Positions 18,303-37,035 of a stretch of 64,000 bases of DNA are shown here, one piece after another. The notes under the pieces were generated by a model. The model was not told the origin of the DNA. It was given only the letters and a program-made list of their open reading frames with translations, and ran no database searches. This stretch comes from a virus. Within the stretch, counting starts at the first letter, position 1; each line of letters starts with the position of its first letter. The position numbers and the translations under genes were made by a program. The stretch lies in UHGV virus genome UHGV-1455077. One strand, written 5' to 3'.

Positions 18303-18886
18303 AATACAATATTCCAGATTTAGACGTTGATATGAGCCAAAAAACACGTGATACAATTATTAAAAAATTGTATCACATTCCTGCATCTAAAATAAATGAT
18401 AAAGGAATCAATCCTCACGGCGTTGGCGTTTATTTTTGTAATATTCCTTATGATAGATTAACAGGATTAGCATCTTTAGATTATAAACACGCCGAAGAAG
18501 ATTTAGGATATATAAAAATAGATTTTTTACATAATTCCATTTATGATTCTTTTGATGATAGACAACAACTTTTTAATGTTATGGAACAAGAACCAAATTG
18601 GAATTTATTATATAAAAAAGATATTGTTGAACAACTACCACATATCAATAATTATTTTACATTATTAAATCAATTACCAAAAATTGATTCTGTTGATAAA
18701 TTAGCAATGTTTATTGCTATTATTCGTCCTGCTAAAAAATATTTAATTTCTGAAGTTACAAACAATGGGTGGGATTCAATTATTGATAAAATATGGATTA
18801 AAGAAGATACTGGATATATGTATAAAAAATCACACGCTGTTGCGTATGCATTATCTATTACTGTTGCAATGAGTAAATTTATTTAG
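18284..18886 (+). CDS. hypothetical protein
   Basis: 200 aa ORF. Confidence 0.45.
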   Translation: MVMEKIKYNIPDLDVDMSQKTRDTIIKKLYHIPASKINDKGINPHGVGVYFCNIPYDRLTGLASLDYKHAEEDLGYIKIDFLHNSIYDSFDDRQQLFNVMEQEPNWNLLYKKDIVEQLPHINNYFTLLNQLPKIDSVDKLAMFIAIIRPAKKYLISEVTNNGWDSIIDKIWIKEDTGYMYKKSHAVAYALSITVAMSKFI

Positions 18887-19284
18887 TAGCCGCAGGCATA
18901 CCAATCAAAACCATCTGTCCACGAATATTTTCCAATAATAATAGAGGTGTTGTTTTTAGTAAAAATAAATGGCGGATAAGCAGTACCTAAACCGTTTTCA
19001 GTTGAATATTTATTTGCACACGAAGTAAATGTATAATTTGTATTTGTAAATGATTTTTTAAATGTAATTGTTTTAGAATTATAGGAATCTCCTGATGTTA
19101 TTAATCCAGTTGTTCCGCCTTGTTCAATCCAGCCATCTGACCAAATACGATACCATTCAGTTCCTTCATTCCAAGTTTCAATTATTCTTTTTGAATTTTC
19201 TAAATTAATTAAACGGTTATTTATTTCATCTAATTTTGAAATTAATTCATCTACTCGTGATATAGGTAATTTACTTGTATCCAT
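18883..19284 (-). CDS. Paralog family member 1: coiled-coil N-terminus with a variable beta-rich C-terminus (possible fibre/adhesin-like protein)
   Basis: MDTSKLPISRVDELISKLDEINNRLINLEN...WYRIWSDGWIEQGG is shared with the genes at 19344 and 36590. The C-terminal 70 aa are unique. Confidence 0.55.
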   Translation of the reverse strand: MDTSKLPISRVDELISKLDEINNRLINLENSKRIIETWNEGTEWYRIWSDGWIEQGGTTGLITSGDSYNSKTITFKKSFTNTNYTFTSCANKYSTENGLGTAYPPFIFTKNNTSIIIGKYSWTDGFDWYACGY

Positions 19285-19325
19285 TTGAATTATCCCCTTT
19301 GTCTGTATTTAATAAATACAGACAA
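19110..19325. repeat. ~215-bp direct repeat copy A (paralog N-terminus plus upstream palindrome), >90% identical to 36820-37035
   Basis: Both copies run from CC(G/A)CCTTGTTCAATCCAGCCATCTGACCAAA through GTCTGTATTTA.TAAATACAGACAAACT. Confidence 0.7.
19291..19313. promoter_or_regulatory. perfect palindrome (operator-like or hairpin) upstream of the paralog gene
   Basis: GTCTGTATTTAATAAATACAGAC, located 6 nt upstream of the minus-strand RBS AAGGGGA. Confidence 0.5.
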
Positions 19326-19343
19326 ACTACACAGATGAATAAT

Positions 19344-19808
19344 TTATGCTTTAAATCCAGCAACAAACCATTTAAAATTACTTGTGTTTGGATTAAGATA
19401 ATGAGAAAATATTGTTATTTGAGAAACTGATGTTGGAATGCCACCAATACCCATTTCAGTATCACCAATAGCACGACCAGAAGATTGTGAAACAAGAACT
19501 AAATAGTTTGTATTTAACATTGTAATATGTAAATTAACTGCTTTTGTTGAGTTTTCATCAATTGTATTTTGTCCACCCTGTTCTATCCAACCATCACTCC
19601 AAATTCTATACCAATCATCTCCATTGGAATATGTTTCAGTTATATATCTTCTTGATTCTAATGTTAATAAACGACTATCTAATTGTAATAAAGAAGAATT
19701 TATATTGGTGATATTTGTATTAATATTAACAATACTATTATTAATTTCTGATAATTTATCAATCAATTCATCAACACGAGAAATAGGTAATTTACTTGTA
19801 TCAACCAT
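19344..19808 (-). CDS. Paralog family member 2
   Basis: MVDTSKLPISRVDELIDKLSEINN...WYRIWSDGWIEQGG, followed by a divergent C-terminus. Confidence 0.55.
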   Translation of the reverse strand: MVDTSKLPISRVDELIDKLSEINNSIVNINTNITNINSSLLQLDSRLLTLESRRYITETYSNGDDWYRIWSDGWIEQGGQNTIDENSTKAVNLHITMLNTNYLVLVSQSSGRAIGDTEMGIGGIPTSVSQITIFSHYLNPNTSNFKWFVAGFKA

Positions 19809-19820
19809 AATATAATCCTT

Positions 19821-19845
19821 TATGGATATTTAATAAATATCCATA
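19821..19845. promoter_or_regulatory. palindrome upstream of paralog 2
   Basis: TATGGATATTTAATAAATATCCATA. It has the same ATTTAATAAAT core as the other two sites. Confidence 0.45.
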
Positions 19846-19867
19846 AACTGTTTAATTCAGCAGATAC

Positions 19868-20179
19868 TTACTTAGATTTTGTTAAATCCAAAAGATTCAT
19901 AAATTTTTGTTTATAGGCTTTATCACCATCTGATAATTCATCATCAGATTTAGATAAAAATTCATCAAAAACATAATTTAAATAAGTTTTAATTTCTTTA
20001 TCGTGGTCTTTAATTGGTTCTTTGGTTGAATAACCATCCCAAATAGATGGAATACTAAATTCTGAAAATAAAGTTTTGCAGTCGTTTGCCAGAACATCAT
20101 TTATATAAATTTTTAAAGGTTCTTTAAATTTGTAAGTTTTTCGTTTATATATAAATTTTTTTATAGGATATACAGCCAT
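19868..20179 (-). CDS. hypothetical protein
   Basis: 103 aa ORF on the minus strand within the minus-strand cluster. Confidence 0.4.
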   Translation of the reverse strand: MAVYPIKKFIYKRKTYKFKEPLKIYINDVLANDCKTLFSEFSIPSIWDGYSTKEPIKDHDKEIKTYLNYVFDEFLSKSDDELSDGDKAYKQKFMNLLDLTKSK

Positions 20180-20186
20180 TTTAACC

Positions 20187-20528
20187 TCAATCTAAATGTA
20201 TTATTTTTCTCTTTATACGCTTTTCTGAAAGATTTTTCAATTTGATTCCTTCAAAGCCATTTGATATAATATAATCATTATTAGAAAGATGCTGTTTACA
20301 ATAGTCAAATTGGTCAAAAATTTGTTGATAATATAAGGAGATAGGAATATTTGGAGAGTTTTTCCACCAGTTATCTGCTAAACGAATAAATTTTTCAACA
20401 TCCATTGGTTTTAATTCTTTAACATTATAAAATGAAATATAATTTTTAGATACTGATTGGATTAAACAGATAATTGATGTTTCAAATTTTTTATTAAATA
20501 ATTCAGTTAAATATGGATATTTTAACAT
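20187..20528 (-). CDS. hypothetical protein
   Basis: 113 aa ORF. Confidence 0.4.
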   Translation of the reverse strand: MLKYPYLTELFNKKFETSIICLIQSVSKNYISFYNVKELKPMDVEKFIRLADNWWKNSPNIPISLYYQQIFDQFDYCKQHLSNNDYIISNGFEGIKLKNLSEKRIKRKIIHLD

Positions 20529-20607
20529 TTTTTCTCCTTAATATGAAAATATTTATAGCCTTCAAACAGTAATTTTTTAATAGAAAAGTTTTTTATAAAG
20601 GATTTTT

Positions 20608-21234
20608 ATGAAATGGAATATAGAAAGAAATGAAAATAAAATAACTTTAGATTATGAATCTTATTTAAAAAATATTAGTGAAAAAGTAATTAAAAAATTG
20701 GCGGTAAAATCAATTTATAGAATTAGTGAAATATTTAAAGTTTCTATTAAGCAAATAATATTTGACAAACATTTAATTTATGTTATCTTAGATGAGGATA
20801 ATGTACCTGTTTTATTTGAGTTTTTATATTCAATTAAGACAGCATTAGATTTATATATTATTGAAAGAGAGGAAAAAATGAAAAATTTGTATCAGTTTAA
20901 ATCTATGTCTGATATGGAAAAGGTTTTTGATAAAATGCGTATTAATTATGACGATGAAGATGAACCCGTATTGACAAATGATTTTATTATTGAAGGAAAT
21001 TCGTCAACTACGTATGGTTGGCTAAAAAATGTTGCAACAAATATTGGTGTAACTAATGTGTATATTCTACAAGAAGATTATGATGGAATTATGGATAGTG
21101 ATTATCAATTTATTGATACTATTTTTTTGGATATTAAGAATATTGATTGGTTATCTTTTAAAAATGAAATTGATATTGCGGCAGATAGAGTAACATTGGA
21201 TAAAAATGGAATGTTATTGCTGTGGTGGGATTAA
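20608..21234 (+). CDS. hypothetical protein
   Basis: 208 aa ORF. Confidence 0.5.
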   Translation: MKWNIERNENKITLDYESYLKNISEKVIKKLAVKSIYRISEIFKVSIKQIIFDKHLIYVILDEDNVPVLFEFLYSIKTALDLYIIEREEKMKNLYQFKSMSDMEKVFDKMRINYDDEDEPVLTNDFIIEGNSSTTYGWLKNVATNIGVTNVYILQEDYDGIMDSDYQFIDTIFLDIKNIDWLSFKNEIDIAADRVTLDKNGMLLLWWD

Positions 21235-21256
21235 ATTAATCCCACTTCTTTTTTAT
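21226..21256 (+). terminator. rho-independent terminator
   Basis: GTGGGATTAA att TTAATCCCAC followed by TTCTTTTTT. Confidence 0.6.
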
Positions 21257-21288
21257 AAATATTATTATAATTTAAGGATGGTAAACAT

Positions 21289-22107
21289 ATGCAAAAAATT
21301 TATTTATTTGTAAAAAAAGGATATTATTATAATTTATCATCTGGTCAAACAGGAGAAACACGTATGTTCAATGTTCCAATGTATAATACTGATTTTAAAT
21401 TATGGAAAGGTATTGATAATAAAATACAATTTTCAATTCGTGACCACGACCGTAAAGCATATCCTTTAAGAGATAGAGAAATATTTTTAAATATTATTAA
21501 TACAAAATTAAATACTAAATTAGTTAAAAAATTATGGTGCTTGGATGCATATAAAGGATTATATGAAACAACTATTACAGAAGTTGAATTAAGAGATTTT
21601 GAGCCAACATCATATCAGGCATCAGTAATTACAAAAGACCCAGAAGGTCAAGAAGATATGTTATATACTGGTGTTGATTGGAATCCATTATTTAATATTA
21701 TTGTTGAAGAAGGTTTTAGAGATGTATTTAAACCATCTGTTGAATTAGACCCATCAACATTTTTACATAATTTTTATATAGATAGAGTTGATGGACAGCG
21801 TTATGATTATTATGTTTCTTCACGTATAAAAGCTGATGAAACAGATTCTCATACATCATCTATTACTGTTAAAGATTATTTTTTAGGTACTATTACAATG
21901 GAAGGTTCAGTTGAAGTTAATCCACAAGAAAATGGAGATACAGATTGGTTTCCAATTGAAACTAAAGAATATACTGATGAAACAAAAGTTGAAGCTGAAA
22001 CATTTCAATTCAATAAACAATTAAGTTGTATGTGGGTACGTTTTAAATATACAATTAAAGCCGCAAATCATAAAGGTATTATTTCTGAAATTCTTTATAG
22101 AAATTAA
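21289..22107 (+). CDS. hypothetical structural protein
   Basis: 272 aa ORF with an AAGGATGG SD. Confidence 0.5.
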   Translation: MQKIYLFVKKGYYYNLSSGQTGETRMFNVPMYNTDFKLWKGIDNKIQFSIRDHDRKAYPLRDREIFLNIINTKLNTKLVKKLWCLDAYKGLYETTITEVELRDFEPTSYQASVITKDPEGQEDMLYTGVDWNPLFNIIVEEGFRDVFKPSVELDPSTFLHNFYIDRVDGQRYDYYVSSRIKADETDSHTSSITVKDYFLGTITMEGSVEVNPQENGDTDWFPIETKEYTDETKVEAETFQFNKQLSCMWVRFKYTIKAANHKGIISEILYRN

Positions 22108-22136
22108 AAAAGAGGATATTTAATATCCTCTTTTAA
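22108..22136. terminator. bidirectional terminator
   Basis: AGAGGATAT ttaa ATATCCTCT between convergent genes. Confidence 0.65.
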
Positions 22137-23310: not shown

Positions 23311-23436
23311 ATTTTTCCTATATTTAAACTAATTATAATAATATTTACCCTTGTATTAAAATAAATTTGTTATTGACATTTTATCTTTTTTCATATAAAT
23401 TGGGTAAATAAAAATACAACAACTTAAAAAGGTTAT

Positions 23437-24141
23437 ATGAAAATATTGAAAAATATTGGGTTTGTTGTTTTGTTTTTATGTATCTTTACATCTCCAATAT
23501 GTTATTCTCATACATTTGCGAATAATTTATTTGGAACAAAGGTGGAAAGTAATATTCAAACAAGTGACCTTCAAACTCAAAAGAAGATAACAATATTAGA
23601 TACCCTTGCAAAAGAGAATTTAATATTAACCGAAGTAAAGAAGTTGAGGAAAAATGAGCAAGAAGATGTGGTGTGTCTTGCTTTAAATATGTACCACGAA
23701 AATAGGGGTTCCTCAATTGAAGATAGAATTGCATCAACATATGTGGTTTTTAATAGGCAATTTGATAAGCCAAATAAATCGCTATGTGATGTTATTTTTG
23801 AGAAATGGCAATTTTGTTGGACAAATAATACAAAAATTTCTGTTCCTAGAGAACTTAAAATATGGAATGAGATACAACAAGATGCTTATAAAATGTACAA
23901 AAATCCTAAATTTAAAACTTTGGCATCACAATTTCGCTTAAAACATTATGTAGCAACATATATGATACCAATGAAAACGAAGCCAAAATGGATTGATAAA
24001 AGATATTTTAAAATAGATATTGGTAAACATTCTTATATTTCATTAAATAAAGATGATGTTAAATATCAACAAACATTAATGAAATATGTTATCCAAGGCG
24101 AAAAATTAATTCACAACAAAATATTTGTTCAAAAGAGATAA
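23437..24141 (+). CDS. Secreted cell-wall hydrolase, SleB/Hydrolase_2-like
   Basis: An N-terminal signal peptide is followed by CLALNMYHENRGSS...STYVVFNR......QFCW. This matches the Hydrolase_2 motif (N.Y.EARGE...V...V.NR...QF..W). Confidence 0.55.
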   Translation: MKILKNIGFVVLFLCIFTSPICYSHTFANNLFGTKVESNIQTSDLQTQKKITILDTLAKENLILTEVKKLRKNEQEDVVCLALNMYHENRGSSIEDRIASTYVVFNRQFDKPNKSLCDVIFEKWQFCWTNNTKISVPRELKIWNEIQQDAYKMYKNPKFKTLASQFRLKHYVATYMIPMKTKPKWIDKRYFKIDIGKHSYISLNKDDVKYQQTLMKYVIQGEKLIHNKIFVQKR

Positions 24142-24160
24142 AGAAATTTATCTCTTTTTT
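24134..24160 (+). terminator. rho-independent terminator
   Basis: AGAGATAAA gaa TTTATCTCT followed by TTTTTT. Confidence 0.65.
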
Positions 24161-24241
24161 GATATAATACTTTATGCTTATACTTTTATAACACTTTATT
24201 TTTAAGTAAATATTTAAAGATATACTTAAAGGATAATTTGG

Positions 24242-24559: not shown

Positions 24560-25684
24560 ATGGTAAAATTATTCCAATATATAAATTACATTGATTATAA
24601 TGAGTTAATCAATAAACCTTTAATTAATAAAGTTATAGTTGAAGGGGATAAATCATTAGCTGATTATGGTATTCAGCCAGCAGGAAATTATGCTCATTTA
24701 AATGAAAATGGAAAAGTTCCATTGGAAGAACTTGATGATTCATTATTAGGTAATTTACAATTTCAAACTTTATGGGATGCTGAAAATAATAATCCTCAAT
24801 TACCATTAGTTCCAACTCAAAAAGGACAATATTGGATTGTTTCAAATGGTGGAGAAAGATTTGGTTTAACATTTAATACAGGTGATTGGTTAGTAGCTGG
24901 TGATGGAGTATGGCAAAAAGTTGATAATTCAGATGCAGTAACATCAGTTAATGGTAAAATTGGTAATGTTATTTTAACTTCAAATGATATTTCTCATAAT
25001 AATGAAACAGTTGCATCTGCTATTGAATCTAAACAGGATAAATTAACCGCAGGAAAAAATATTACCATTAAAAATGATGTTATTTCCGCAGAATTTAATA
25101 CAGCTATTATAGATTATAATTTAACTTATAATAAACCATCAATTAATGGAGTTGAATTAATTAATGCGAAAACTTTAGAAGATTTTGATATACAAAGAAC
25201 TATTAAAGCAGGTGAAAATGTATATTTAACACAAAGTGAAGCTAATAAAATGTCTGATACTGTTAATGTGTATGATGCTTCTGAAACCAGAAAAGGTGTT
25301 TCAGAAATAGCTACACAGGAAGAAGTTAATACAGGTACAGATGATTTTAGATATGTAACTCCAAAAAAATTAAAAATTGTAACAAATGAAATTAATACAA
25401 CAATTCAAAATAATTATGAAACATTAGATACAAAAATTGATGATGAAATATCCAGAGCTAAAAATAAAGAAACAGAAATCAATAATGATTTAACAACACA
25501 TAAAAATTCAACGAATAATCCACATAATGTTACACCAGCACAATTAAATGTTTATACAAAAACTGAAGTTGATAATTTAATACTCGAGTTAACAAAAAAT
25601 TATAATCAAATATCTGAAACTATAATAAAATTAAATGAAAGATTAACAAAATTAGAAAACAATATTGATGGTGGTAACGCTTAA
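24560..25684 (+). CDS. Tail fibre protein
   Basis: It shares the N-terminal module Y(N/D)..INKP.IN.V.L.G.KSL.(E/D)(L/Y)GIQ..G.Y with 26330 and 27457, and has a C-terminal coiled coil. Confidence 0.6.
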   Translation: MVKLFQYINYIDYNELINKPLINKVIVEGDKSLADYGIQPAGNYAHLNENGKVPLEELDDSLLGNLQFQTLWDAENNNPQLPLVPTQKGQYWIVSNGGERFGLTFNTGDWLVAGDGVWQKVDNSDAVTSVNGKIGNVILTSNDISHNNETVASAIESKQDKLTAGKNITIKNDVISAEFNTAIIDYNLTYNKPSINGVELINAKTLEDFDIQRTIKAGENVYLTQSEANKMSDTVNVYDASETRKGVSEIATQEEVNTGTDDFRYVTPKKLKIVTNEINTTIQNNYETLDTKIDDEISRAKNKETEINNDLTTHKNSTNNPHNVTPAQLNVYTKTEVDNLILELTKNYNQISETIIKLNERLTKLENNIDGGNA

Positions 25685-25731
25685 GTTTTAATAAATATTT
25701 TTATAAAATATATTTTATAAGGAAAAATAAA

Positions 25732-26319
25732 ATGATTCAAGGAACAAAAATTTATAGTGTGTCAGTAGCAAATGCCGCTGGAGCTTCAAATGAAGAAAAA
25801 GGATTTTTAGATAATAAAAAAGTTTCTGATTATTCAGATTTTGATATTTCATTACAACCAATTGATGGTGAAACTTTAGAGCAATATAAAATTAAAGCTC
25901 GTGGTTTAGTTCGTTACAATCAAATGTGCTTAAACTTACAAAGAGGTTTAGATTATTTGGGTGAAGTTGTTACAACTGGTGCTAATCATATTACACCACC
26001 AACAAAAATTGAATTTAAATTATCTTACACTCAACCAGATGGTTTAGTTGTTGAAGTTGACAGTTCTGAATTTGCAGAAGATGATGAAATTTTTAAAACA
26101 AGAGATGGCAGAGTATTTTTCAAAGGAACAAAAGCTATTAAAAGATTAATTGCAATGGCATTGGTTGATGATTATATAGTAATTGCAAATTATTTTGATA
26201 ATACTAAAACACCATCTGGAAACCCATTGGGTTGGCAATTAAAAGAATTAGTTGTTAAAGGCCCAAGTGCAAATTTAACTACTGCCGAAGCATTAGTAAC
26301 TGTAACTGAATTATTATAA
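25732..26319 (+). CDS. hypothetical structural protein
   Basis: 195 aa ORF between the fibre genes. Confidence 0.45.
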   Translation: MIQGTKIYSVSVANAAGASNEEKGFLDNKKVSDYSDFDISLQPIDGETLEQYKIKARGLVRYNQMCLNLQRGLDYLGEVVTTGANHITPPTKIEFKLSYTQPDGLVVEVDSSEFAEDDEIFKTRDGRVFFKGTKAIKRLIAMALVDDYIVIANYFDNTKTPSGNPLGWQLKELVVKGPSANLTTAEALVTVTELL

Positions 26320-26329
26320 GGAGTAATAA

Positions 26330-27439
26330 ATGGCAACTGATACTGCTACAAAAATACAATTAAGACGTGATTCTTCTGCAAATTGGTTTGCTAATAATCC
26401 AGTTTTAGCTGAAGGTGAAATTGGTATTGAATTAGATAAAAATAGAATGAAAGTCGGAAATGGGGTTAATGCTTATAATGATTTAGAATACTTTTCTGAT
26501 ACAGTTGACTATAACAAAATGATTAATAAACCTCAAATTAATAGTGTAGGTTTAATAGGTAATTTATCTTTACACGAATTAGGTATTCAGGCTGAAGGTG
26601 AGTATGCAACATCTTTAATGTTAACAGAAGGTTTAGCTAAAAAAGCTGATAAAGAAGATACATATACAAAAACTGAAATTGATACTGAATTTTCATCAAT
26701 TGTTAGATTACCATCAATTGATGGTCACGATGGTGAGTGGTTACACGTTAAAAATGGTACTATTTTATGGGAAAGTCTTTCAAATACTGTTGTTACAAAT
26801 GAAGATTTAGCAAAAACTTTAGAAACTTATGCATTAAAAACAGATATTCCAACAAAAACTTCTGAATTAACTAATGATTCAGGATTTTTAACAAGTATTC
26901 CAGAAGAATATGTAACAGAAACTGAACTTGCATCAAAAGGATATGCAACTGTTGATTCTGTTAATAATAAAGCTGATAAAGCAACAACATTATCAGGTTA
27001 CGGAATTACAGATGTATATACAAAAACTGAATCTGATAGTAAATATGCATTACAATCTTCATTGAATACATATGCAACTAAAGAAGAATTAAATAATAAA
27101 GCTGATGAAACAGAATTATCTAATTATTTAACTAAAACAGATGCATCTTCAACTTATGCAACACAATCTAGTATGACAACAGAATTAGCTAAAAAAGCAG
27201 ATACATCTACATTATCTAATTATTTAACTAAAACAGATGCATCTTCAACTTATGCAACAAAAGCAGAATTGTCATCTAAAGCAGATACATCAGCTTTACC
27301 AGCATCAACTTCTTTAATGAATGGTTCAGCACCAACTGTTTCAGATATTAGTACAGAAACAGTTACAGATATAGCAGGTTTAATTAATGCAATTAATGCA
27401 ATTTTAGCTCAATTAAGAACACGAAATGTTATTGAATAA
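26330..27439 (+). CDS. Tail fibre protein with T(K/S)(S/T)(D/E)LTNDSGFLT and LSGYGI(T/S)D.YTKTE.D.KYA repeats
   Basis: It has the typical phage tail-fibre repeat. The tail LSNYLTKTDASSTYAT is duplicated. The C-terminal ...LAQLRTRNVIE is shared with 27457. Confidence 0.65.
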   Translation: MATDTATKIQLRRDSSANWFANNPVLAEGEIGIELDKNRMKVGNGVNAYNDLEYFSDTVDYNKMINKPQINSVGLIGNLSLHELGIQAEGEYATSLMLTEGLAKKADKEDTYTKTEIDTEFSSIVRLPSIDGHDGEWLHVKNGTILWESLSNTVVTNEDLAKTLETYALKTDIPTKTSELTNDSGFLTSIPEEYVTETELASKGYATVDSVNNKADKATTLSGYGITDVYTKTESDSKYALQSSLNTYATKEELNNKADETELSNYLTKTDASSTYATQSSMTTELAKKADTSTLSNYLTKTDASSTYATKAELSSKADTSALPASTSLMNGSAPTVSDISTETVTDIAGLINAINAILAQLRTRNVIE

Positions 27440-27456
27440 ATTAAAGGAATAATTTT

Positions 27457-28146
27457 ATGACAGAAAGAATTGATATTAAATATGTATTAAAAGATACAAA
27501 AGCAAATTGGGTAAGTTTTAATCCAACTTTGTCAAAAGGTATTATAATTTATGAAACTGATACTAATTTAATTAAGTTATGTGATGGAATTTCTGATTAT
27601 AATTCATTATCATATATTGGTGGAACAGGTGGTTCATCTACAACAGTAGATTATACATCTTTATCTAATAAACCACAAATTAATTCAATTGAATTAACAG
27701 GAAATAAAACGTTAGACCAGTTAGGTATTCAAGCTAAAGGAAATTATTTAGTTTCAACTGATTTAAATAATTATGCTTTAAAGACTGAATTGCCAACAAA
27801 AACAAGTGATTTAACAAATGATTCAGGATTTTTAACAAATATTCCTTCAGAATATGTAACAGAAACTGAATTAAATAATGAATTGCAAGATAAAGCTGAT
27901 AAAGCAACAACTTTATCTGGCTATGGCATTTCTGATGCATATACTAAAACAGAAACTGATGGTAAATATGCAACAAAAACTGAATTAGCAACTAAAGCAG
28001 ATTCAAGTGCTTTACCTGCATCTACATCATTAATGAATGGAAATGCTCCATCAATTGCTGATTTTACAGGAACTGATGCAGAAGAATTAAAAACTGAATT
28101 GAATGCATTATTAGCTCAATTAAAAACTCGTGGTGTAATTGCTTAA
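27457..28146 (+). CDS. Tail fibre protein (short paralog of 26330)
   Basis: It has the same repeat modules and C-terminal LLAQLKTRGVIA. Confidence 0.65.
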   Translation: MTERIDIKYVLKDTKANWVSFNPTLSKGIIIYETDTNLIKLCDGISDYNSLSYIGGTGGSSTTVDYTSLSNKPQINSIELTGNKTLDQLGIQAKGNYLVSTDLNNYALKTELPTKTSDLTNDSGFLTNIPSEYVTETELNNELQDKADKATTLSGYGISDAYTKTETDGKYATKTELATKADSSALPASTSLMNGNAPSIADFTGTDAEELKTELNALLAQLKTRGVIA

Positions 28147-31070: not shown

Positions 31071-31150
31071 TAATAAAAAATGGGAAAATAATATTGTTTT
31101 ATTTTCCCAACATAATTTATAATTTAATTGTATATTAAGGAGAATATTAT

Positions 31151-32248: not shown

Positions 32249-32326
32249 AAAACTCTTGACAATTCTATTTTATATGATAAGTTAATATCCGTAAGTGGTT
32301 ATTAACTTATTTTTTAGGAGAAAATA

Positions 32327-32548
32327 ATGACAGTTAGTATTTTTTGTATTTTAATTGTTTTGGGTATTGTATGTTGTTCATATCTAAAATATAAAAGTTG
32401 GGTTTCTCACGAAGATTTCCGTGAAAAACTTAAAAATGATAAGGGTTTTATGAAATTGTATGAAGAATACAAAAATTTTGTAGAACAGAATCCTGATTTT
32501 AATAAACATAAAACTGAAATTGAAAACTTTATGAAAGGAAAAAATTAA
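32327..32548 (+). CDS. small membrane protein
   Basis: 73 aa with an N-terminal TM helix. Confidence 0.4.
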   Translation: MTVSIFCILIVLGIVCCSYLKYKSWVSHEDFREKLKNDKGFMKLYEEYKNFVEQNPDFNKHKTEIENFMKGKN

Positions 32549-33702
32549 TGATTAAACAATTTGTGGGTATTTTTGGTCTTATTGCTGTTGTCGTATTGGT
32601 TTGGCTATCTGGCTCGTTGTTTGAAACAAATAAATTTGGTAATTATCAGATTAAACAAGCCGCAATGACTGGTACAATTTCTGTAAGAAATGAACCTGGT
32701 TTCTATTGGCAGGGTGGTGGTTCAATTGTAACGTATCCTGTATCAGAAGATGTTAATTTTGAAACAGAAAATTTGAAAGTAAGATTTAATGATGGTTCAG
32801 TTGCAAGTGTAGTTGGTACTGTAAAATTTAAGTTGCCAACTGACCCTGAAAAGCAGAAAGAATTGCATAGAGATTATGGAAATTATGATAATGTTGAAAA
32901 GAACTTGATTGTTCGTAATGTTAGTGAAGCTTTGTCTAATACTGCAACTTATATGGTAGCTGAAGATTCTTATGCATCAGGACGTGCTGTATTCTCTGAT
33001 TTGGCAATGCAACAGTTGAAAGATGGTATTTTTAAGACATCAACTAAAACTGTTGAAGTAATTGATACTGATGGAACTAAATTTAAAAAGAAAGAAATTA
33101 GAGTAGTTTATGATGAAAATGGTAATCCTGTAATTCAGAAACCTTCTTTGCTTAAACATTATGGTATTGAAATCTTGCAGTTTGTTGTAAATGACTTTGA
33201 ATATGATGAAAAAATTAAGGATTTGATTGCTCGTAAAAAAGATGCTGAACAGAATAAAGTTGTAGCTATGGCAAATGCTGAAAAAGCAAAGCAGGATGCT
33301 ATTACTGCCGAAGAACAAGGTAAAGCTCGTGTAGCAGAAGCTCGTGCTAATGCAGAAGTTGAAAAAATTACTGCGGTAGTTGAAGCCCAGAAGAAAGCAG
33401 AAGTTGCAGAATTGGAAGCAAAACAGGCAAAATTTGAAGCCCAGAAAATTGCTGAAAAGGGTAAGGCTGAAGCAGAAGTTGCACGGCAGAAGGTTGCCGC
33501 TGGTTTGACACCATTGGAAAAAGCAACTCTTGAAAAAGAAACAGCTATTGGTGTAGCACAGCAGTTGGCTAATGTTAAATTCCCAGACACTATGGTTATT
33601 AGTGGTGGTTCAGATGGAAAAGCTAATCCTTGGGATGCTGTTGGTTTGAATCAGATGATGGAAATTACAGCAAAAATTAAAAACGCTAAAATGATTCAGT
33701 AA
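32548..33702 (+). CDS. SPFH/band-7 (flotillin/HflK-like) membrane protein
   Basis: An N-terminal TM helix and an SPFH-like core are followed by a long Ala/Glu/Lys-rich coiled coil (AEARANAEVEKITAVVEAQKKAEVAELEAKQAKFEAQKIAEKGKAEAEVARQKVAAG). Local GC is noticeably higher than in the neighbours. Confidence 0.6.
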   Translation: MIKQFVGIFGLIAVVVLVWLSGSLFETNKFGNYQIKQAAMTGTISVRNEPGFYWQGGGSIVTYPVSEDVNFETENLKVRFNDGSVASVVGTVKFKLPTDPEKQKELHRDYGNYDNVEKNLIVRNVSEALSNTATYMVAEDSYASGRAVFSDLAMQQLKDGIFKTSTKTVEVIDTDGTKFKKKEIRVVYDENGNPVIQKPSLLKHYGIEILQFVVNDFEYDEKIKDLIARKKDAEQNKVVAMANAEKAKQDAITAEEQGKARVAEARANAEVEKITAVVEAQKKAEVAELEAKQAKFEAQKIAEKGKAEAEVARQKVAAGLTPLEKATLEKETAIGVAQQLANVKFPDTMVISGGSDGKANPWDAVGLNQMMEITAKIKNAKMIQ

Positions 33703-33704
33703 TA

Positions 33705-33730
33705 AAAAGGTGGGAAAACCCACCTTTTTT
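33705..33730 (+). terminator. rho-independent terminator
   Basis: GGTGGG aaaa CCCACC followed by TTTTTT. Confidence 0.75.
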
Positions 33731-33808
33731 ACAAATAAAATTTTAATATTTGATTTTAAGATAATAAAATGATAAATTCTTTATGTAAAAAATATTAGGA
33801 GATTTTTA

Positions 33809-34045
33809 ATGACTGATGAAGATATTTACTACATATGGAATATATTAAAAGAATTTATTCAATCTAAAGATAGAGAAGAAGCATCATTGGCAATGCTAGA
33901 ATACGTTTATAATAATGATGGTTGCGTTGCTTCAATTAGAGATGCCGCTCAAGAAGAAGATGATGAATTTATAGTTAATTTAATTGATAAACATCAAGAA
34001 GATTTATTAGATGCTTATGATGATGGATATGAGGAAGATTGGTAA
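33809..34045 (+). CDS. small acidic protein
   Basis: 78 aa ORF with a GGAG SD. Confidence 0.4.
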   Translation: MTDEDIYYIWNILKEFIQSKDREEASLAMLEYVYNNDGCVASIRDAAQEEDDEFIVNLIDKHQEDLLDAYDDGYEEDW

Positions 34046-34500
34046 TGCAATATTTTCAATTTATTAAAAAAGATGAAACAAAATTAGAAGAAGTTTTAAA
34101 TTATTTTAATGATGAATATGAATTAGCCCGTGAAGAAATTAAAATTAAAGGAAGATTAAATAAATGTATTGCAGAATTACCTTCCTTATTTGAAATTAGA
34201 TTTTCTCAATTACAAGAATTAGAAGCAATTTTAGCTTATTTTAATAATAAATTAAATGGATTAAGAGGTTCAATTTATAGACAATTACAAGAACATTCAA
34301 AAAGACAGTTAAATTCAACTGATATTAAACAATATGTTGATAGTGATGAAAAAGTTCTTGCAATGCAAACAATTATTAATGAAATTGCATTAGTTAGAAA
34401 TAAATTTATTTCATTGTCAAAAGGATTTGAAACTAAAAATTGGCAGTTAAGTAATTTAACAAAATTACAATGTGCAGGCTTAGATGATATTCAAATTTAA
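34039..34500 (+). CDS. hypothetical protein
   Basis: 153 aa ORF. Confidence 0.4.
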   Translation: MVMQYFQFIKKDETKLEEVLNYFNDEYELAREEIKIKGRLNKCIAELPSLFEIRFSQLQELEAILAYFNNKLNGLRGSIYRQLQEHSKRQLNSTDIKQYVDSDEKVLAMQTIINEIALVRNKFISLSKGFETKNWQLSNLTKLQCAGLDDIQI

Positions 34501-34518
34501 CTAATTTTGTGAGGAATA

Positions 34519-34929
34519 ATGAAAGTTTATACAACTGTTAAAACACATCAAAATTTTAGTAATATTGGTGTTGTTTTGTTAAGTGATAAAAATGACATAT
34601 ATATGATGAATAATTTTCAAGTTTCTGAAAAAGATAATGTCAAATCTCATATTTATGGAATTAAAAGAGCATTGAGTTTTGTTAAAAATATGAAGCTTTT
34701 ATATGCCAAAAATGATATGGAAATATTAATTCCAGAAGACATTGAATTAAAAAAATTTCAAGAAAGTATTGCAAATGATGAATATATTGTAATGGTTTCA
34801 AAACAATTAGATATTAATGTAGTATCAAAAGAAAATTTATTGCCTAATGATGATTACTTTAAAATGATTGCAAAACATCAATTAAAAAATATTATAAATC
34901 CTATTTTTAATATTAAAGAACGAGAGTAA
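34519..34929 (+). CDS. hypothetical protein
   Basis: 136 aa ORF with a GAGGAATAATG SD. Confidence 0.4.
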   Translation: MKVYTTVKTHQNFSNIGVVLLSDKNDIYMMNNFQVSEKDNVKSHIYGIKRALSFVKNMKLLYAKNDMEILIPEDIELKKFQESIANDEYIVMVSKQLDINVVSKENLLPNDDYFKMIAKHQLKNIINPIFNIKERE

Positions 34930-34950
34930 ATAATTAAAAAGGATATTTTT

Positions 34951-35187
34951 ATGAATAAAGAACAAGCATATTTAAGTATTATTAATGCAACTATTCGAAC
35001 ATTGAATGAATGTATTCAAAGAATAGATTCTCACGTCAGAAATTATTCTCAAACTCATCCAGTTTCTTCTAAAGAAAGTGATGAACATATGAATTATGTT
35101 GAAAATGTTATTAAAGTTTTAACTCGTATTGCTAAAGTTGTTAGTTCAAGAGCAAATACTGTATATAAAGCAGGAAAATATGATTAG
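34951..35187 (+). CDS. small hypothetical protein
   Basis: 78 aa ORF. Confidence 0.4.
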   Translation: MNKEQAYLSIINATIRTLNECIQRIDSHVRNYSQTHPVSSKESDEHMNYVENVIKVLTRIAKVVSSRANTVYKAGKYD

Positions 35188-35253
35188 ACTTAATAAATAT
35201 TTAAAGATAATGAAATAAATTGTTATCTGTATAATTTATTTAAGGAGAAATTT

Positions 35254-35985
35254 ATGGGAAGACCTCTTGCTGGTTTTGGATTTTTTAATGCCGAAAAAAG
35301 ATTTGATGCTGAAGCAGAAAACTTTGAAAAAGTTAAAATTCACGCATTTTTAGAACAAGATGCTGAACCTGCTGTATGGGTAAAAAATACTCAATATGAA
35401 GTTGGTGATAAAGTTAAAAATGGTTCAAAATATTATATTTGCACAACAGCTAATTCACAAGCAACATTTAAAGCAAAAGAAACTGCTCCTGCCGCTTGGG
35501 TTGCCGCAACTGCATATAATGTTGGTGATAAAGTAACAAATAGTGGTTTATATTATATTTGTAAAACTGCTCATACTTCAAGTGATGACTTTGCAACTGA
35601 TTCAGCAAATTGGGATTCATACACATTAATTACCTACTGGACAGAATATACTTTAGGTGGTGGTGCAATTGAAGATGCAAAAATTATTAAACAAACAGGA
35701 TATAACAAATATTTAGTATCTGCTTCTGCTGATGTAAATCGTCAAGGTATTGTTATGTTAGTTGATAAAACTGATGCAACTGTTGCTGGAACTGCTTATA
35801 TTTCAGTAACTAAGTTAGCTGATTCATCAACTAAATATGCAAGTAAAATCGTTCGTAATGTTATTGAAACATTTGATGGTGAAGTTTTAACTTATCAATA
35901 TGATTTAACCGAAGAAGATGGCGAATTTTCAGGTGCATTTAATAAAGATAAAACAGTTGTTGAATGTTATCCAGAAGTATTTTAA
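35254..35985 (+). CDS. Structural protein with two tandem CBM5/12-like (chitin-binding-type) carbohydrate-binding motifs
   Basis: The two repeats are AVWVKNTQYEVGDKVKNGSKYYICTTANSQ and AAWVAATAYNVGDKVTNSGLYYICKTAHTSS. Both fit the W..aYttG..V.y.G..Y.C pattern. Confidence 0.5.
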   Translation: MGRPLAGFGFFNAEKRFDAEAENFEKVKIHAFLEQDAEPAVWVKNTQYEVGDKVKNGSKYYICTTANSQATFKAKETAPAAWVAATAYNVGDKVTNSGLYYICKTAHTSSDDFATDSANWDSYTLITYWTEYTLGGGAIEDAKIIKQTGYNKYLVSASADVNRQGIVMLVDKTDATVAGTAYISVTKLADSSTKYASKIVRNVIETFDGEVLTYQYDLTEEDGEFSGAFNKDKTVVECYPEVF

Positions 35986-36060
35986 TTAATATTTGACATT
36001 TAATCTAATTAAACCTATCATTAATTTGATAGGTTTAATTTTTAATATAAGGAAAAAATA

Positions 36061-36564
36061 ATGACAGTTAGAGTTGGTAAATTTGAAAAAATTAGTTTAG
36101 AACAATGGCATAAAGATTTTGACAACGATTCATCTAAAATTGTTGATAAAATGTTAAATGAAATTATTAAAATTCCAACCAGAGCTACAAAAGGGTCGGC
36201 AGGTTATGATATTGTTACACCATTTGATATAGATTTGCAACCAGGTGAATCAAGAAAAATCCCGACAGGATTAAAATGTCAAGTAGATAATGGTTGGTTT
36301 CTTGGTATTTTTCCAAAATCTGGTCTTGGTTTTAAATATTCGTTAAGATTAGGTAATTCAGTTGGTATTATTGATGAAGATTATCATAATAATGAAAACA
36401 ATGAAGGTCATATTTGGGTTAAAATTCAAAATGATGGATATAAAGAAGTTCATATAGATGCTGGTAAGGCATTTTGTCAAGGTATTTTTTTGCCATATGG
36501 TATTACTTATGATGATAAAACAGAAGGTGTTAGACAAGGCGGATTAGGTTCTACTAATTCATAA
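36061..36564 (+). CDS. dut: dUTP diphosphatase (dUTPase)
   Basis: The conserved dUTPase motifs are present: ATKGSAGYDI, PGESRKIPTGL, GIFPKSG, LGNSVGIIDEDY and RQGGLGSTN. Confidence 0.85.
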   Translation: MTVRVGKFEKISLEQWHKDFDNDSSKIVDKMLNEIIKIPTRATKGSAGYDIVTPFDIDLQPGESRKIPTGLKCQVDNGWFLGIFPKSGLGFKYSLRLGNSVGIIDEDYHNNENNEGHIWVKIQNDGYKEVHIDAGKAFCQGIFLPYGITYDDKTEGVRQGGLGSTNS

Positions 36565-36591
36565 AAAGAGGGTTTAATAACCCTCTTTTTT
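36564..36591. terminator. bidirectional terminator
   Basis: AGAGGGTT taat AACCCTCT followed by TTTTT. Confidence 0.7.
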
Positions 36592-36991
36592 AATATCCAC
36601 AAGTGTACCATCTTCTTATATTTAAACCGTTACCAGAATAGAAATGAATTACAAATGAAGAATTAGTTACACTTACTATTGTTGCAGGAATATGCCAACC
36701 TGTAACAGTTTGTGACCAAGCACCATTAAATCCAGTTGTTTGAGTTATAAAATAATCAGAATTTGTATAAGGTTTGTGTAATTGAATTGTAATTTCAGAA
36801 TCAACTGCATTATAAGATTGTCCACCTTGTTCAATCCAGCCATCTGACCAAACACGATACCATTCAGTTCCTTCATTCCAAGTTTCAATGATATATTTTC
36901 TATTTTCTAAATTAATTAATCGGTTATTTATTTCATCTAATTTTGAAATTAATTCATCTACTCGTGATATAGGTAATTTACTTGTATCCAT
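36590..36991 (-). CDS. Paralog family member 3 (N-terminus identical to 18883)
   Basis: MDTSKLPISRVDELISKLDEINNRLINLEN...WYRVWSDGWIEQGG. The first ~170 nt of the gene are nearly identical to 19110-19284 at the DNA level. Confidence 0.55.
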   Translation of the reverse strand: MDTSKLPISRVDELISKLDEINNRLINLENRKYIIETWNEGTEWYRVWSDGWIEQGGQSYNAVDSEITIQLHKPYTNSDYFITQTTGFNGAWSQTVTGWHIPATIVSVTNSSFVIHFYSGNGLNIRRWYTCGY

Positions 36992-37035
36992 TTGAATTAT
37001 CCCCTTTGTCTGTATTTATTAAATACAGACAAACT
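36820..37035. repeat. ~215-bp direct repeat copy B
   Basis: See copy A. The copies are 17.7 kb apart, in the same orientation, and flank the fibre/structural block. Confidence 0.7.
37008..37030. promoter_or_regulatory. palindrome upstream of paralog 3 (same site as 19291)
   Basis: GTCTGTATTTATTAAATACAGAC. Confidence 0.5.

What the first reader, a model, noticed from the sequence alone, without database searches (positions are those of the whole stretch)
18883..37035. Three paralogous minus-strand genes with identical N-termini, divergent C-termini and conserved upstream palindromes; two share a 215-bp DNA repeat
Genes 18883-19284, 19344-19808 and 36590-36991 begin MDTSKLPISRVDELISKLDEINN...WYRIWSDGWIEQGG and then diverge completely. 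Each has an upstream perfect palindrome built on an ATTTAATAAAT core (19291, 19821, 37008). They are transcribed against the flow of the surrounding structural genes. Copies A (19110-19325) and B (36820-37035) are near-identical at the DNA level and in direct orientation 17.7 kb apart. This could be a cassette system of swappable receptor-binding or lectin tips on a constant trimerising stem, with the repeats as recombination substrates.
Basis: seen in the sequence. Interest (0 to 1): 0.65.

Follow-up and report, generated by a model that had tools for sequence, protein, structure and literature searches.

The report
Shuffled phage fibre-tip genes behind palindromes
A giant gut phage carries several small genes for sugar-binding tail-fibre tips; each starts with the same hairpin-forming DNA palindrome and the same short protein stem, and related phages have used this shared start to swap tips between genes.

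Summary
A (18883-19284), B (19344-19808) and C (36590-36991) are minus-strand paralogs. A and C share a 214-nt block at 95% identity, and its edges are sharp. A perfect 29-bp palindrome lies 8-12 nt upstream of each start codon.

The C-termini are not unrelated. Both models give the same lectin-like jellyroll, the R-pyocin fibre foot / AP22 gp53 class, on a coiled-coil stalk.

The window is from a roughly 289-kb Rak2-like jumbo phage of the human gut. Relatives carry 7-10 such genes scattered round the genome. All share an N-terminal peptide and the palindrome, but they have at least five kinds of C-terminal domain.

The palindrome shows perfect compensatory changes: 14 stem variants, 63 of 64 contexts fully paired, no G-U pairs. 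It is not a terminator. Its centre is an inverted pair of the clade's late-promoter heptamer ATAAATA.

Relatives show a B/A chimera, head-by-tail mosaics and replaced tips at conserved loci. So the cassette idea holds as evolutionary recombination. There is no sign of programmed switching.

This is a new variant of a known kind. What the palindrome does is still open: a promoter hairpin is my best guess, a 5'-UTR stem-loop the main rival.

The parts
18883..19284 (-). Gene A, 133 aa: N-terminal peptide MDTSKLPISRVDEL, helix 8-30, then an eight-strand beta-sandwich tip
   Evidence: ORF. AlphaFold model, pLDDT 83. Foldseek hit to the R-pyocin fibre foot, E 3e-4. PF21882 at 19.6 bits, below the cutoff.
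19344..19808 (-). Gene B, 154 aa: same head with a 21-residue (three-heptad) insertion in the stalk and a different tip
   Evidence: PF21882 at 17.2 bits, below the cutoff.
36590..36991 (-). Gene C, 133 aa: head almost identical to A, different tip, same fold
   Evidence: Model pLDDT 84.5. Foldseek hit to the R2 pyocin fibre 6ct8, E 1.7e-5.
19298..19326 (.). Perfect 29-bp palindrome upstream of A (arm TTTGTCTGTATTTA; centre T on the gene strand). The 3' arm runs into the ribosome-binding site AAAGGGG.
   Evidence: RNA hairpin dG -14.4, z -3.9.
19819..19847 (.). Perfect 29-bp palindrome upstream of B (arm TTTATGGATATTTA): same core, with compensatory changes in the arms
37005..37033 (.). Perfect 29-bp palindrome upstream of C. 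The centre is A on the gene strand, which gives a gene-strand AATAAATA.
19114..19327 (-). Copy 1 of the 5' homology block (palindrome, ribosome-binding site and codons 1-57)
   Evidence: 214 nt, 95.3% identical to 36821-37034; flanks 30-42%.
36821..37034 (-). Copy 2 of the 5' homology block
19868..20528 (-). Two small upstream genes (103 and 113 aa, function unknown) that form one minus-strand operon with B and A
   Evidence: The gene order is kept in relatives.
20550..20556 (-). ATAAATA late-promoter-like heptamer 21 nt upstream of the first gene of the operon
   Evidence: Consensus of Rak2-like phages from PMC5259590.
37057..37063 (+). ATAAATA heptamer 27 nt upstream of the divergent gene 37091-37609. 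This is the 'TATTTAT at -30' motif seen next to many family copies.
36563..36590 (.). Bidirectional intrinsic terminator (AAAAAGAGGG...CCCTCTTTTT) between the dUTPase gene and the 3' end of C

Best explanation
A, B and C are three members of a 7-10-copy family of short fibre-tip proteins in a Rak2-like jumbo myophage of the human gut; I infer, but have not shown, that they are late-expressed.

Protein. Each has a conserved N-terminal peptide, M(x)D(T/I)SK(L/I)..R(V/I)(D/N)(E/G)L, which I infer is the piece that docks onto the virion. A heptad coiled-coil stalk of variable length follows. The C-terminus is a lectin-like jellyroll of the Gp53-like_C / R-pyocin 'foot' class, whose variable loops would bind a surface glycan.

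Shared 5' module. Every family gene starts with the same module: a palindrome, a ribosome-binding site and about 57 codons ending at WYRxWSDGWIEQGG. Homologous recombination between paralogs, and between co-infecting relatives, uses this module as a portable block of homology. It homogenises heads within a genome, makes chimeras and deletions, and replaces tips at fixed loci. That shuffles the phage's repertoire of binding specificities.

Palindrome. It is a selected, hairpin-forming cis element. Its top is an inverted pair of the clade's late-promoter heptamer (T/A)TAAATA. Most likely it is the family's own late promoter built into a hairpin, so that each cassette carries its own expression signal wherever it lands.

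Shown: the genes, the repeat, the fold, the covariation, the mosaics and the locus replacements. Inferred: trimer state, virion attachment, glycan binding, promoter activity, and whether the hairpin acts in DNA or RNA.
For: Protein
- Helix plus beta-sandwich models, pLDDT 83-85.
- Foldseek top hits are R1/R2 pyocin fibre foot domains, E 3e-4 to 1.7e-5, TM up to 0.62. Next come the LKA1 and phi297 tailspike C-termini and Helix pomatia agglutinin. PMC6363177 groups these same folds with AP22 gp53.
- Family member P0104 passes PF21882 at 35 bits.
- A profile search finds 6662 representatives, mostly the C-termini of 350-2200-aa fibres.

Phage
- UvsX is about 50% identical to those of Atu_ph07, CBB and GAP32. 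Related contigs are 282-293 kb.

Family
- The pattern TTTRNNNNWATTTAWTAAATWNNNNYAAAGG is essentially confined to this clade in IMG/VR (37 of 39 matches). It gives only chance matches in 185,579 prokaryotic genomes, apart from two phage fragments that had been binned as bacteria.
- Each genome has 7-10 copies, always in front of genes with the shared N-terminal peptide. Tip classes include Gp53-like, Phage Tail Collar PF07484 (58-61 bits) and three unknown classes.

Hairpin
- 13 pairs; 6 of them show changes on both sides; 99.4% of cells are paired; 0 of 500 shuffles reach this.
- In pattern matches where six positions were left free, 63 of 64 family contexts are fully complementary. The 43 non-family matches scatter from 0 to 6.

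Promoter
- ATAAATA sits 21-35 nt upstream of 7 of the 47 window genes listed, two more have it 5 and 9 nt upstream, and about 1 in all is expected by chance. It is the published late consensus of Rak2-like phages.
- The TAAATA in the palindrome lies about 21-26 nt from the start codon.
- In L008, L009 and L011 a co-directional upstream gene ends in an intrinsic terminator that abuts the palindrome. No other room is left for a promoter.

Recombination
- The edges of the A-C block are sharp.
- L004 has a chimera with its crossover inside the 78-nt shared head.
- The head-by-tail table shows the A-type tail on 4 head types and the C-type tail on 4.
- In L020 the C locus has flanks 74-84% identical but a resident gene only 34% identical. 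In L078 the A/B locus has flanks 79-87% identical but a resident gene 31-35% identical. The A-type tip sits at a different locus in contig 163091.
Against: - A, B and C themselves score below the PF21882 cutoff (19.6 and 17.2 bits, and no hit for C).
- Trimerisation, presence in the virion and ligand binding are untested.
- In 123 of 130 instances the exact heptamer ATAAATA is on the antisense strand. The gene strand reads TTAAATA, so promoter activity in the gene direction needs a 6-of-7 variant.
- A promoter alone does not explain why the outer arms must stay complementary.
- A and B sit inside an operon and do not strictly need a promoter of their own.
- No transcription start site data exist.
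- The recombination evidence is comparative, between genomes. It is not seen within one population.
Confidence: 0.6

Rival explanations
1. The palindrome acts only in RNA. It would be a 13-bp stem-loop in the 5' UTR just upstream of the ribosome-binding site. It would stabilise the mRNA, set the translation rate, or bind a phage regulator, so that all family genes form one post-transcriptional regulon.
For: - A stable hairpin is predicted on the gene strand: dG -12 to -15 kcal/mol, z -2.7 to -4.3.
- Covariation is strong.
- In nearly all jumbo-phage copies the 3' arm abuts the ribosome-binding site at a fixed distance.
- A and B are inside an operon, so their transcripts must contain the hairpin.
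- The variable stem positions are richer in G+C than the 26.6% GC genome.
Against: - There are no G-U pairs in 14 stem variants. The single mismatch is C-A on the gene strand.
- The ribosome-binding site is not sequestered in the fold.
- In copies that lie directly behind a terminator, the 5' arm may never be transcribed.
- In two other phage contigs (L044, L059) a palindrome with the same core lies 40-57 nt from the start codon, not at the ribosome-binding site.
- There is no Rfam match.
Confidence: 0.3
2. The palindrome is primarily a recombination initiator. It would extrude as a cruciform or hairpin and be cut by a resolvase or endonuclease. The break would be repaired from a paralog, so that tip exchange is actively promoted. 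This would be a dedicated cassette-shuffling device.
For: - The palindrome is exactly the 5' edge of the A-C homology block.
- It is a perfect, AT-centred 29-31-bp palindrome with Watson-Crick pairs only.
- The centre base flips (T in 123 instances, A in 7) at five different loci, four of which also have instances with T. A flip equals an inversion of the palindrome.
- Mosaics and locus replacements are abundant.
- A UvsX recombinase is encoded 12 kb away.
Against: - No nuclease or site-specific recombinase lies next to any copy.
- Ordinary homologous recombination in a T4-like replication system explains the mosaics without a special initiator.
- Crossovers are seen inside the coding head and at the WIEQGG junction, not at the palindrome.
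Confidence: 0.1
3. The proteins are not host-receptor adhesins. They would be decoration or 'whisker' lectins on the capsid or tail that bind environmental glycans such as mucus. Alternatively they are not in the virion at all.
For: - AP22 gp53 itself did not inhibit infection, and its role is unclear (abstract of 10.1101/518761).
- Rak2-like phage CBB carries unexplained hair-like tail whiskers (PMC5259590).
- The proteins are very short (113-240 aa) and their genes are scattered rather than in the fibre cluster.
- Neighbouring genes encode other glycan-binding or Ig-like modules, CBM_5_12 and He_PIG.
Against: - The same domain caps thousands of long tail fibres.
- The sister classes that share the N-terminal peptide have Tail Collar domains typical of fibres.
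- Rapid tip replacement at fixed loci is the pattern expected of host-range determinants.
Confidence: 0.25
4. The palindromes are just intrinsic terminators of the upstream genes.
For: They are stable hairpins in intergenic DNA.
Against: - The polarity is TTT...AAA, so there is no U-tract after the stem on either strand. The window's real terminators are AAAA-GC stem-TTTT. The terminator scan does not call them.
- C has no upstream co-directional gene.
- In L008, L009 and L011 a separate genuine terminator lies in front of the palindrome.
- The element follows the family gene, not the upstream gene.
Confidence: 0.02

Closest known systems
Gp53-like_C tail-fibre tip (Pfam PF21882; AP22 gp53, PDB 4MTM) and the 'foot' domain of R-type pyocin fibres (6CL5, 6CL6, 6CXB, 6CT8)
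   Same: C-terminal lectin-like jellyroll with variable distal loops, preceded by a helical trimerising segment. It has the same sequence signature (W-Y-R-x-W-S-D-G-W-I-E-Q-G-G ... T-N-x-N-Y ... W-Y-A-C-G-Y) and the same structural neighbours.
   Different: Here the domain is a stand-alone protein of about 130 aa with only a 30-50-residue stalk. It is not the end of a fibre of about 270 aa (AP22 gp53) to about 700 aa (R pyocin) or longer. It is present in 5-7 Gp53-like copies per genome. The window's own copies score below the Pfam cutoff.
Branched multi-receptor-binding-protein adsorption complexes of jumbo and Vi1-like phages (RaK2 gp098 and gp526-534; CBA120 TSP1-4)
   Same: Many different receptor-binding proteins in one virion, attached through conserved N-terminal modules. 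The modular design allows domain swapping (PMC10253068). The window's phage belongs to the same broad Rak2-like group by its UvsX.
   Different: In RaK2 and CBA120 the N-terminal modules are folded domains of about 100 aa (D1, XD) on large depolymerases, and the genes are clustered. Here the shared part is a 15-30-aa peptide plus a coiled coil, the proteins are tiny, the genes are scattered over the genome, and each has its own palindrome.
Adhesin-domain shuffling in T-even distal tail-fibre genes through conserved linker motifs (Tetart, Desplats and Krisch, 1998; recalled from my own knowledge, not checked here)
   Same: Short conserved sequence blocks that flank variable adhesin segments act as homologous-recombination sites and swap specificity.
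   Different: Here the conserved block includes the non-coding 5' element and the start of the gene. Exchange also occurs among 7-10 paralogous loci within one genome.
Late promoter of Rak2-like and T4-like phages (ATAAATA / TATAAATA)
   Same: The core of the palindrome is TATTTA-N-TAAATA, two inverted copies of the heptamer's last six bases. It lies about 21-26 nt from the start codon, as the ATAAATA motifs do at other genes of the window.
   Different: Ordinary late promoters in the window are not embedded in extended palindromes. Here 8 further base pairs per arm are kept complementary by covariation.
Hairpin promoters of phage N4 virion RNA polymerase, and flip-flop inversions of small hairpin loops in chloroplast DNA (both recalled from my own knowledge; leads only)
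   Same: A DNA hairpin at a promoter, and recurrent inversion of the loop of a short perfect inverted repeat.
   Different: No N4-like RNA polymerase was found in the window. Nothing here shows that the DNA hairpin actually extrudes.

Membership tests
Pfam PF21882 Gp53-like_C | HMM score at or above the gathering cutoff (24.9 bits) | tested here: not met
   A scores 19.6 bits, B 17.2 bits and C has no hit. Close family member P0104 scores 35.2 bits, and long-fibre homologs P0129 and P0143 score 41.8 and 25.8 bits. Membership therefore rests on transitive homology, not on the window sequences alone.
Pfam PF21882 Gp53-like_C | Lectin-like jellyroll fold shared with AP22 gp53 and the R-pyocin foot | tested here: met
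   Foldseek: for A, 6cl6/6cxb at E 3e-4 and TM 0.52-0.62; for C, 6ct8 at E 1.7e-5. Other hits are LKA1 gp49, phi297, Helix pomatia agglutinin and SLL-2. PMC6363177 names the same set as structural relatives of AP22 gp53. 4MTM itself was not among the listed hits.
Pfam PF21882 Gp53-like_C | Forms the C-terminal tip of a homotrimeric fibre | not testable with these tools
   The domain is C-terminal and follows a heptad helix. Only monomer prediction was available.
Branched multi-receptor-binding-protein complexes (CBA120 / RaK2 type) | Several different receptor-binding proteins per genome sharing an N-terminal attachment module | tested here: met
   7-10 genes per genome share M(x)D(T/I)SK(L/I)..R(V/I)(D/N)(E/G)L, with at least five C-terminal classes.
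Branched multi-receptor-binding-protein complexes (CBA120 / RaK2 type) | The attachment module is a folded D1 or gp10-like (XD) domain | tested here: not met
   The models show only a disordered heptapeptide and one helix in front of the tip domain. There are no Pfam hits in the head.
Intrinsic (Rho-independent) terminator | G+C-rich stem followed by a U-tract | tested here: not met
   The stem is AT-rich with TTT...AAA polarity, there is no T-run on either strand, and the terminator scan does not call it.
Rak2-like / T4-like late promoter | ATAAATA heptamer about 20-35 nt upstream of a late gene's start codon | tested here: inconclusive
   The exact heptamer is on the gene strand only at C and in 7 of 130 instances. 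Elsewhere the gene strand reads TTAAATA and the exact heptamer is antisense. The spacing fits.
Rak2-like / T4-like late promoter | Transcription starts a few bases downstream, dependent on the late sigma factor | not testable with these tools
   No transcript data. Indirect support: terminators abut the palindrome in L008, L009 and L011.
Known structured RNA families (Rfam 15) | Covariance-model match | tested here: not met
   Only three chance-level hits, E 0.78-0.93, far below their gathering scores.
Diversity-generating retroelement target (Mtd-type) | Template repeat paired with the variable region, and a reverse transcriptase nearby | tested here: not met
   No repeat in the window matches any of the variable C-terminal regions. 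No reverse transcriptase turned up among the roughly 30 larger ORFs of the window that were scanned. The Mtd_N domains of the neighbouring fibres are N-terminal only.
Site-specific gene-cassette systems (integron attC-like, invertase shufflons) | Structured recombination site together with a dedicated recombinase gene | tested here: not met
   A structured palindrome is present, but no integrase or invertase was found within about 5 kb of any copy examined. The copies are dispersed, not arrayed.

The most novel reading that the evidence does not exclude
The palindrome is a DNA-level hairpin or cruciform that is both the promoter and the recombination handle of a dispersed set of 7-10 receptor-binding cassettes. 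On this reading the jumbo phage carries a dedicated, self-contained module (hairpin promoter plus docking peptide) that lets any tip domain be plugged in, expressed and mounted on the virion. The hairpin would actively stimulate exchange. The flipping centre base, which decides which strand carries the exact ATAAATA, would act as a small orientation switch.
Probability: 0.12. Interest if true: 0.8.

Novelty: new variant of a known kind. Interest (0 to 1): 0.55.

Why it matters
Host range in phages is set by receptor-binding tips, and engineering it depends on knowing where tips can be exchanged. This family shows a natural plug-in format. A module of about 214 nt (expression signal plus docking peptide plus stalk) is joined at a fixed junction (WIEQGG) to interchangeable lectin-like tips. 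It is reused 7-10 times per genome and has been recombined repeatedly in gut phage populations. That gives defined junctions for swapping tips in an uncultured jumbo phage clade. It also gives a clade-specific 31-nt marker for finding all such genes. Finally, it provides a clean natural example of a palindrome with perfect covariation whose level of action, DNA or RNA, can be tested directly.

Tried and rejected
- Megablast of 18-38 kb against 50,697 phage records found no match. tblastn with protein A found only two unannotated faecal phage contigs.
- A sequence search of the PDB with the family profile gave only chance coiled-coil hits.
- PHROG hits for A, B and C are weak and inconsistent.
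- Rfam gave nothing.
- I first took the conserved TATTTAT about 30 nt upstream of many palindromes for the family's promoter. It turned out to be the reverse complement of ATAAATA placed correctly for the divergent neighbouring gene. As a 15-mer it is not enriched in the window: 33 matches against 27.5 expected.
- Sigma-70-type promoter scans around the genes are at background level.
- The terminator reading is rejected.
- I considered that the A centre base at C creates a promoter that a stand-alone gene needs. This is rejected as a rule, because the C ortholog in L007 has T.
- The neighbour 37091-37609 is not a co-duplicated partner. Its homologs occur only at the orthologous locus.
- Scanning 185,579 prokaryotic genomes for the element gave no clue to the host.

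Full report

Yes. The three minus-strand ORFs are at the stated coordinates: A 18883-19284 (133 aa), B 19344-19808 (154 aa) and C 36590-36991 (133 aa). They share MDTSKLPISRVDELI...WYR(I/V)WSDGWIEQGG. B has an extra 21 residues, three heptads, in the helical part.

The repeat finder reports 19114-19344 vs 36821-37051 (231 nt, 93%) in direct orientation, 17,707 nt apart. Base by base, the homology block is 19114-19327 vs 36821-37034: 214 nt with 10 mismatches (95.3%). Six of the mismatches sit in one patch and one is the central base of the palindrome. Identity drops to 42% and 30% just outside. The block begins at the outermost base of the palindrome and ends at the GG codons.

The palindromes are perfect, with 14-bp arms and one central base, at 19298-19326, 19819-19847 and 37005-37033. 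The 13-nt core TATTTAWTAAATA occurs three times in the window, only at these genes. The expectation is 0.17, and none of 100 shuffles reaches three.

**2. What the proteins are**

The C-terminal halves are divergent but homologous. They align with conserved N81, Y84, G100, W128 and G132. Across 29 family members the motifs (T/S)N(T/S)(N/D)Y and WYACGY recur.

AlphaFold models of A and C (pLDDT 83.4 and 84.5) have the same topology: a helix at residues 8-30 followed by an eight-strand beta-sandwich. For both, Foldseek against the PDB ranks the receptor-binding 'foot' of R1/R2 pyocin fibres first (E 3e-4 and 1.7e-5, TM up to 0.62). Next come the C-terminal domains of the LKA1 and phi297 tailspikes, Helix pomatia agglutinin and the coral lectin SLL-2. 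PMC6363177 describes this same set as one lectin-like jellyroll class that also contains the AP22 gp53 fibre. In that class the variable distal loops L1, L3 and L5 bind polysaccharide.

Pfam's Gp53-like_C model (PF21882) hits A and B below its cutoff (19.6 and 17.2 bits, cutoff 24.9). It hits family member P0104 and long-fibre homologs above it. A profile search of 1.8 billion representative proteins finds 6662 relatives, mostly at the C-terminus of 350-2200-aa proteins and sometimes in tandem. So A, B and C are stand-alone fibre tips on a short coiled-coil stalk. The trimeric state is inferred from the solved homologs and was not tested.

**3. What the phage is**

The window is 26.6% G+C and carries 21 tRNA genes. 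It encodes UvsX, a gp32-like SSB, dUTPase, RNase H, a baseplate hub-lysozyme and tail fibres.

Its UvsX is 47-50% identical to those of the Rak2-like giant myophages Atu_ph07, CBB, GAP32 and XaC1. No sequenced isolate is close. Near-identical contigs of 282-293 kb come from human gut metagenomes.

**4. The family is larger than three**

The family was traced in two ways:

- Protein-based retrieval from IMG/VR shows 5-7 dispersed Gp53-like copies on each related 200-282-kb contig. Every one has the palindrome.
- The DNA pattern TTTRNNNNWATTTAWTAAATWNNNNYAAAGG gives 39 matches in 2.9 million viral contigs, and 37 of them lie on contigs of this clade.

In 185,579 prokaryotic genomes the only perfect palindromes matching the pattern are two phage fragments that had been binned as bacteria.

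Each genome has 7-10 genes behind such a palindrome. All begin with M(x)D(T/I)SK(L/I)..R(V/I)(D/N)(E/G)L. Their C-terminal domains fall into at least five classes: Gp53-like, Phage Tail Collar (PF07484, 58-61 bits) and three with no Pfam match.

A different, smaller contig (L044) has four fibre genes that share an analogous N-terminal peptide (...LIPQNRI..L). It has a palindrome with the same core between two of them. L059 is similar.

The constant parts of the system are therefore the palindrome and the N-terminal peptide. The peptide is most plausibly the piece that docks onto the virion. That is an inference.

**5. The palindrome**

*Evidence that base-pairing is selected*

- Twelve distinct versions align without ambiguity. 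Of the 13 base pairs, 7 never vary and 6 show changes on both sides (32 cells). 99.4% of cells are paired and none is G-U. No shuffle or slid control comes close.
- An unbiased control comes from the metagenome scan, in which six positions were left free. In 63 of 64 family contexts all six are complementary, with 14 different stems. The 43 unrelated matches scatter from 0 to 6.

So base-pairing itself is under selection.

*It is not a terminator.* Its polarity is TTT...AAA with no T-run on either strand. The window's genuine terminators are AAAA-GC stem-TTTT. C has no upstream co-directional gene. In L008, L009 and L011 a real terminator of a co-directional upstream gene stands directly in front of the palindrome. 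Rfam has no match.

*The core resembles the late promoter.* The invariant core TATTTA-N-TAAATA is an inverted pair of the last six bases of ATAAATA.

- ATAAATA precedes 9 of the 47 listed window genes, 7 of them at 21-35 nt, where about 1 in all is expected by chance.
- It is the published late-promoter consensus of Rak2-like phages CBB and GAP32, and resembles T4's TATAAATA (PMC5259590).
- The TAAATA in the palindrome lies about 21-26 nt from the start codon, in the same range.
- In the copies that sit behind a terminator there is no other room for a promoter.

This makes a late promoter built into a hairpin the best single reading.

*What does not fit that reading.* The exact heptamer is on the gene strand only when the central base is A, as at C in the window. 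That is 7 of 130 instances. Otherwise it is antisense. A promoter also does not by itself explain why the outer arms must pair.

*Centre base and level of action.* The centre flips between T and A at five different loci, and at four of them other instances carry T, while the arms stay unchanged. A flip is the same as inverting the palindrome. Together with the absence of G-U pairs, this leans towards action in DNA. An RNA stem-loop next to the ribosome-binding site (dG -12 to -15 kcal/mol) remains a serious rival.

**6. Recombination**

The 5' module behaves as a portable homology block. Four lines of evidence show this.

(a) Contig 152892 is 97-98% identical to the window here. It has a single gene made of B's palindrome and first codons joined to A's body. 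The crossover lies in the 78-nt shared head, and the 521 nt between the two repeat copies are missing.

(b) Among 120 clustered homologs, the A-type tail occurs on four head types and the C-type tail on four. P0072, for example, is B's long head on A's tail.

(c) At the C locus the flanking genes are 74-84% identical in contig 163091, but the resident gene is only 34% identical, with another tip and another stem. At the A/B locus the flanks are 79-87% identical in contig 143958, but there is one resident gene, 31-35% identical. An A-type tip (84%) sits at a different locus in contig 163091.

(d) Stalk length changes by whole heptads. B has three extra. One OJNH variant has five NFNIINN repeats.

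The stem variant travels with the first codons, not with the tip.

No deletion between A and C was seen. Such a deletion would remove SSB, UvsX and the fibre genes. No recombinase, reverse transcriptase or template repeat lies nearby. The cassette idea therefore holds as recurrent homologous exchange in evolution. It does not hold as a programmed switch.

**7. Comparison with known systems**

| Part | Closest known | How this differs |
|---|---|---|
| Tip domain | Gp53-like_C / pyocin-foot class | Member by fold and by transitive homology only |
| Overall logic | Branched multi-receptor-binding-protein complexes of RaK2 and CBA120, with conserved N-terminal attachment modules and swappable C-terminal domains (PMC10253068) | The shared module is a short peptide plus a coiled coil, the proteins are tiny, and the genes are scattered |
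| Recombination | T-even fibre adhesin shuffling through conserved linkers (my own knowledge) | The conserved block includes the non-coding 5' element, and exchange runs among 7-10 loci in one genome |
| Palindrome | None found | A covarying palindrome attached to each cassette has no described counterpart that I could find |

**8. Verdict**

The finding is a new variant of a known kind. Interest is moderate to good. The open question is what the palindrome does.

Noticed in passing
window 44535-60252: A cluster of 21 tRNA genes, all on the plus strand, interspersed with small ORFs and repeated sigma-70-like promoters (TTGACA...TATAAT; repeat families D3-D6 and D9).
   Followed up: no
window 41542-41624 and 61536-61618: Two 83-nt stretches that are 100% identical, each holding a strong TTGACA-N17-TATATT promoter, a leader and a start codon. 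Their 32-nt promoter core (repeat family D6) is also identical at 9781-9812, and a 63% copy of the 83-nt stretch lies at 59067. They look like reused early-promoter cassettes.
   Followed up: no
window 45954-46009 and 55890-55945: A 56-nt repeat (82%) that starts like the 5' half of a tRNA (GTAGCTCATTGGTAGAGCA) but was not called by ARAGORN. It could be a tRNA with an intron, or a degenerate tRNA.
   Followed up: no
window 18284-18886 and 40623-41153: Two separate small ORFs (200 and 176 aa) each match PHROG families annotated 'DNA polymerase' (phrog_11778 and phrog_11127), 22 kb apart. The polymerase may be split, or these may be polymerase-accessory fragments.
   Followed up: no
window 12710-17233 (-): A 1507-aa protein with ART-PolyVal (ADP-ribosyltransferase) and DUF5662 domains, preceded by an ATAAATA motif. 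It is probably an injected virion protein. In relative L002 the gene is split in two (995 and 516 aa).
   Followed up: partly
window 24560-28146; L002 619-4724: The tail-fibre cluster (374, 195, 369 and 229 aa; Mtd_N-type N-termini; internal repeats D7 and D10-D15) differs in an otherwise near-identical relative, which has an 820-aa and a 334-aa gene instead. This is a second variable fibre locus.
   Followed up: partly
window 35254-35985 and 37622-40360: The genes flanking C encode a protein with repeated CBM_5_12 carbohydrate-binding modules and a 912-aa protein with He_PIG Ig-like domains. Further glycan-binding or surface modules therefore lie in the same neighbourhood.
   Followed up: partly
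L044 700-4400 (IMGVR_UViG_3300028888_000425): An unrelated, smaller phage contig has four fibre genes with a common N-terminal peptide (M..LIPQNRI..L). It has a palindrome with the same ATATTTATTAAATAT core between two divergent ones. The design of a peptide plus a palindrome may be more widespread. L059 is similar.
   Followed up: partly
L186, minus-strand offset 6757 (contig OJNH01000001.1): An A-type family gene of 168 aa whose stalk carries five tandem NFNIINN heptads, so stalk length varies through repeat expansion. The centre base of its palindrome is also flipped to A.
   Followed up: partly
window 10846-12684: A CCA-adding tRNA nucleotidyltransferase (421 aa) next to an HSP20-family small heat-shock protein (163 aa).
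   Followed up: no
window 22108-22134, 24131-24158, 33704-33729, 36563-36590 and others: The window has 22 perfect hairpin palindromes with arms of at least 10 bp, against about 3 expected. Several of the other 19 are A-run/T-run bidirectional terminators placed between genes.
   Followed up: partly
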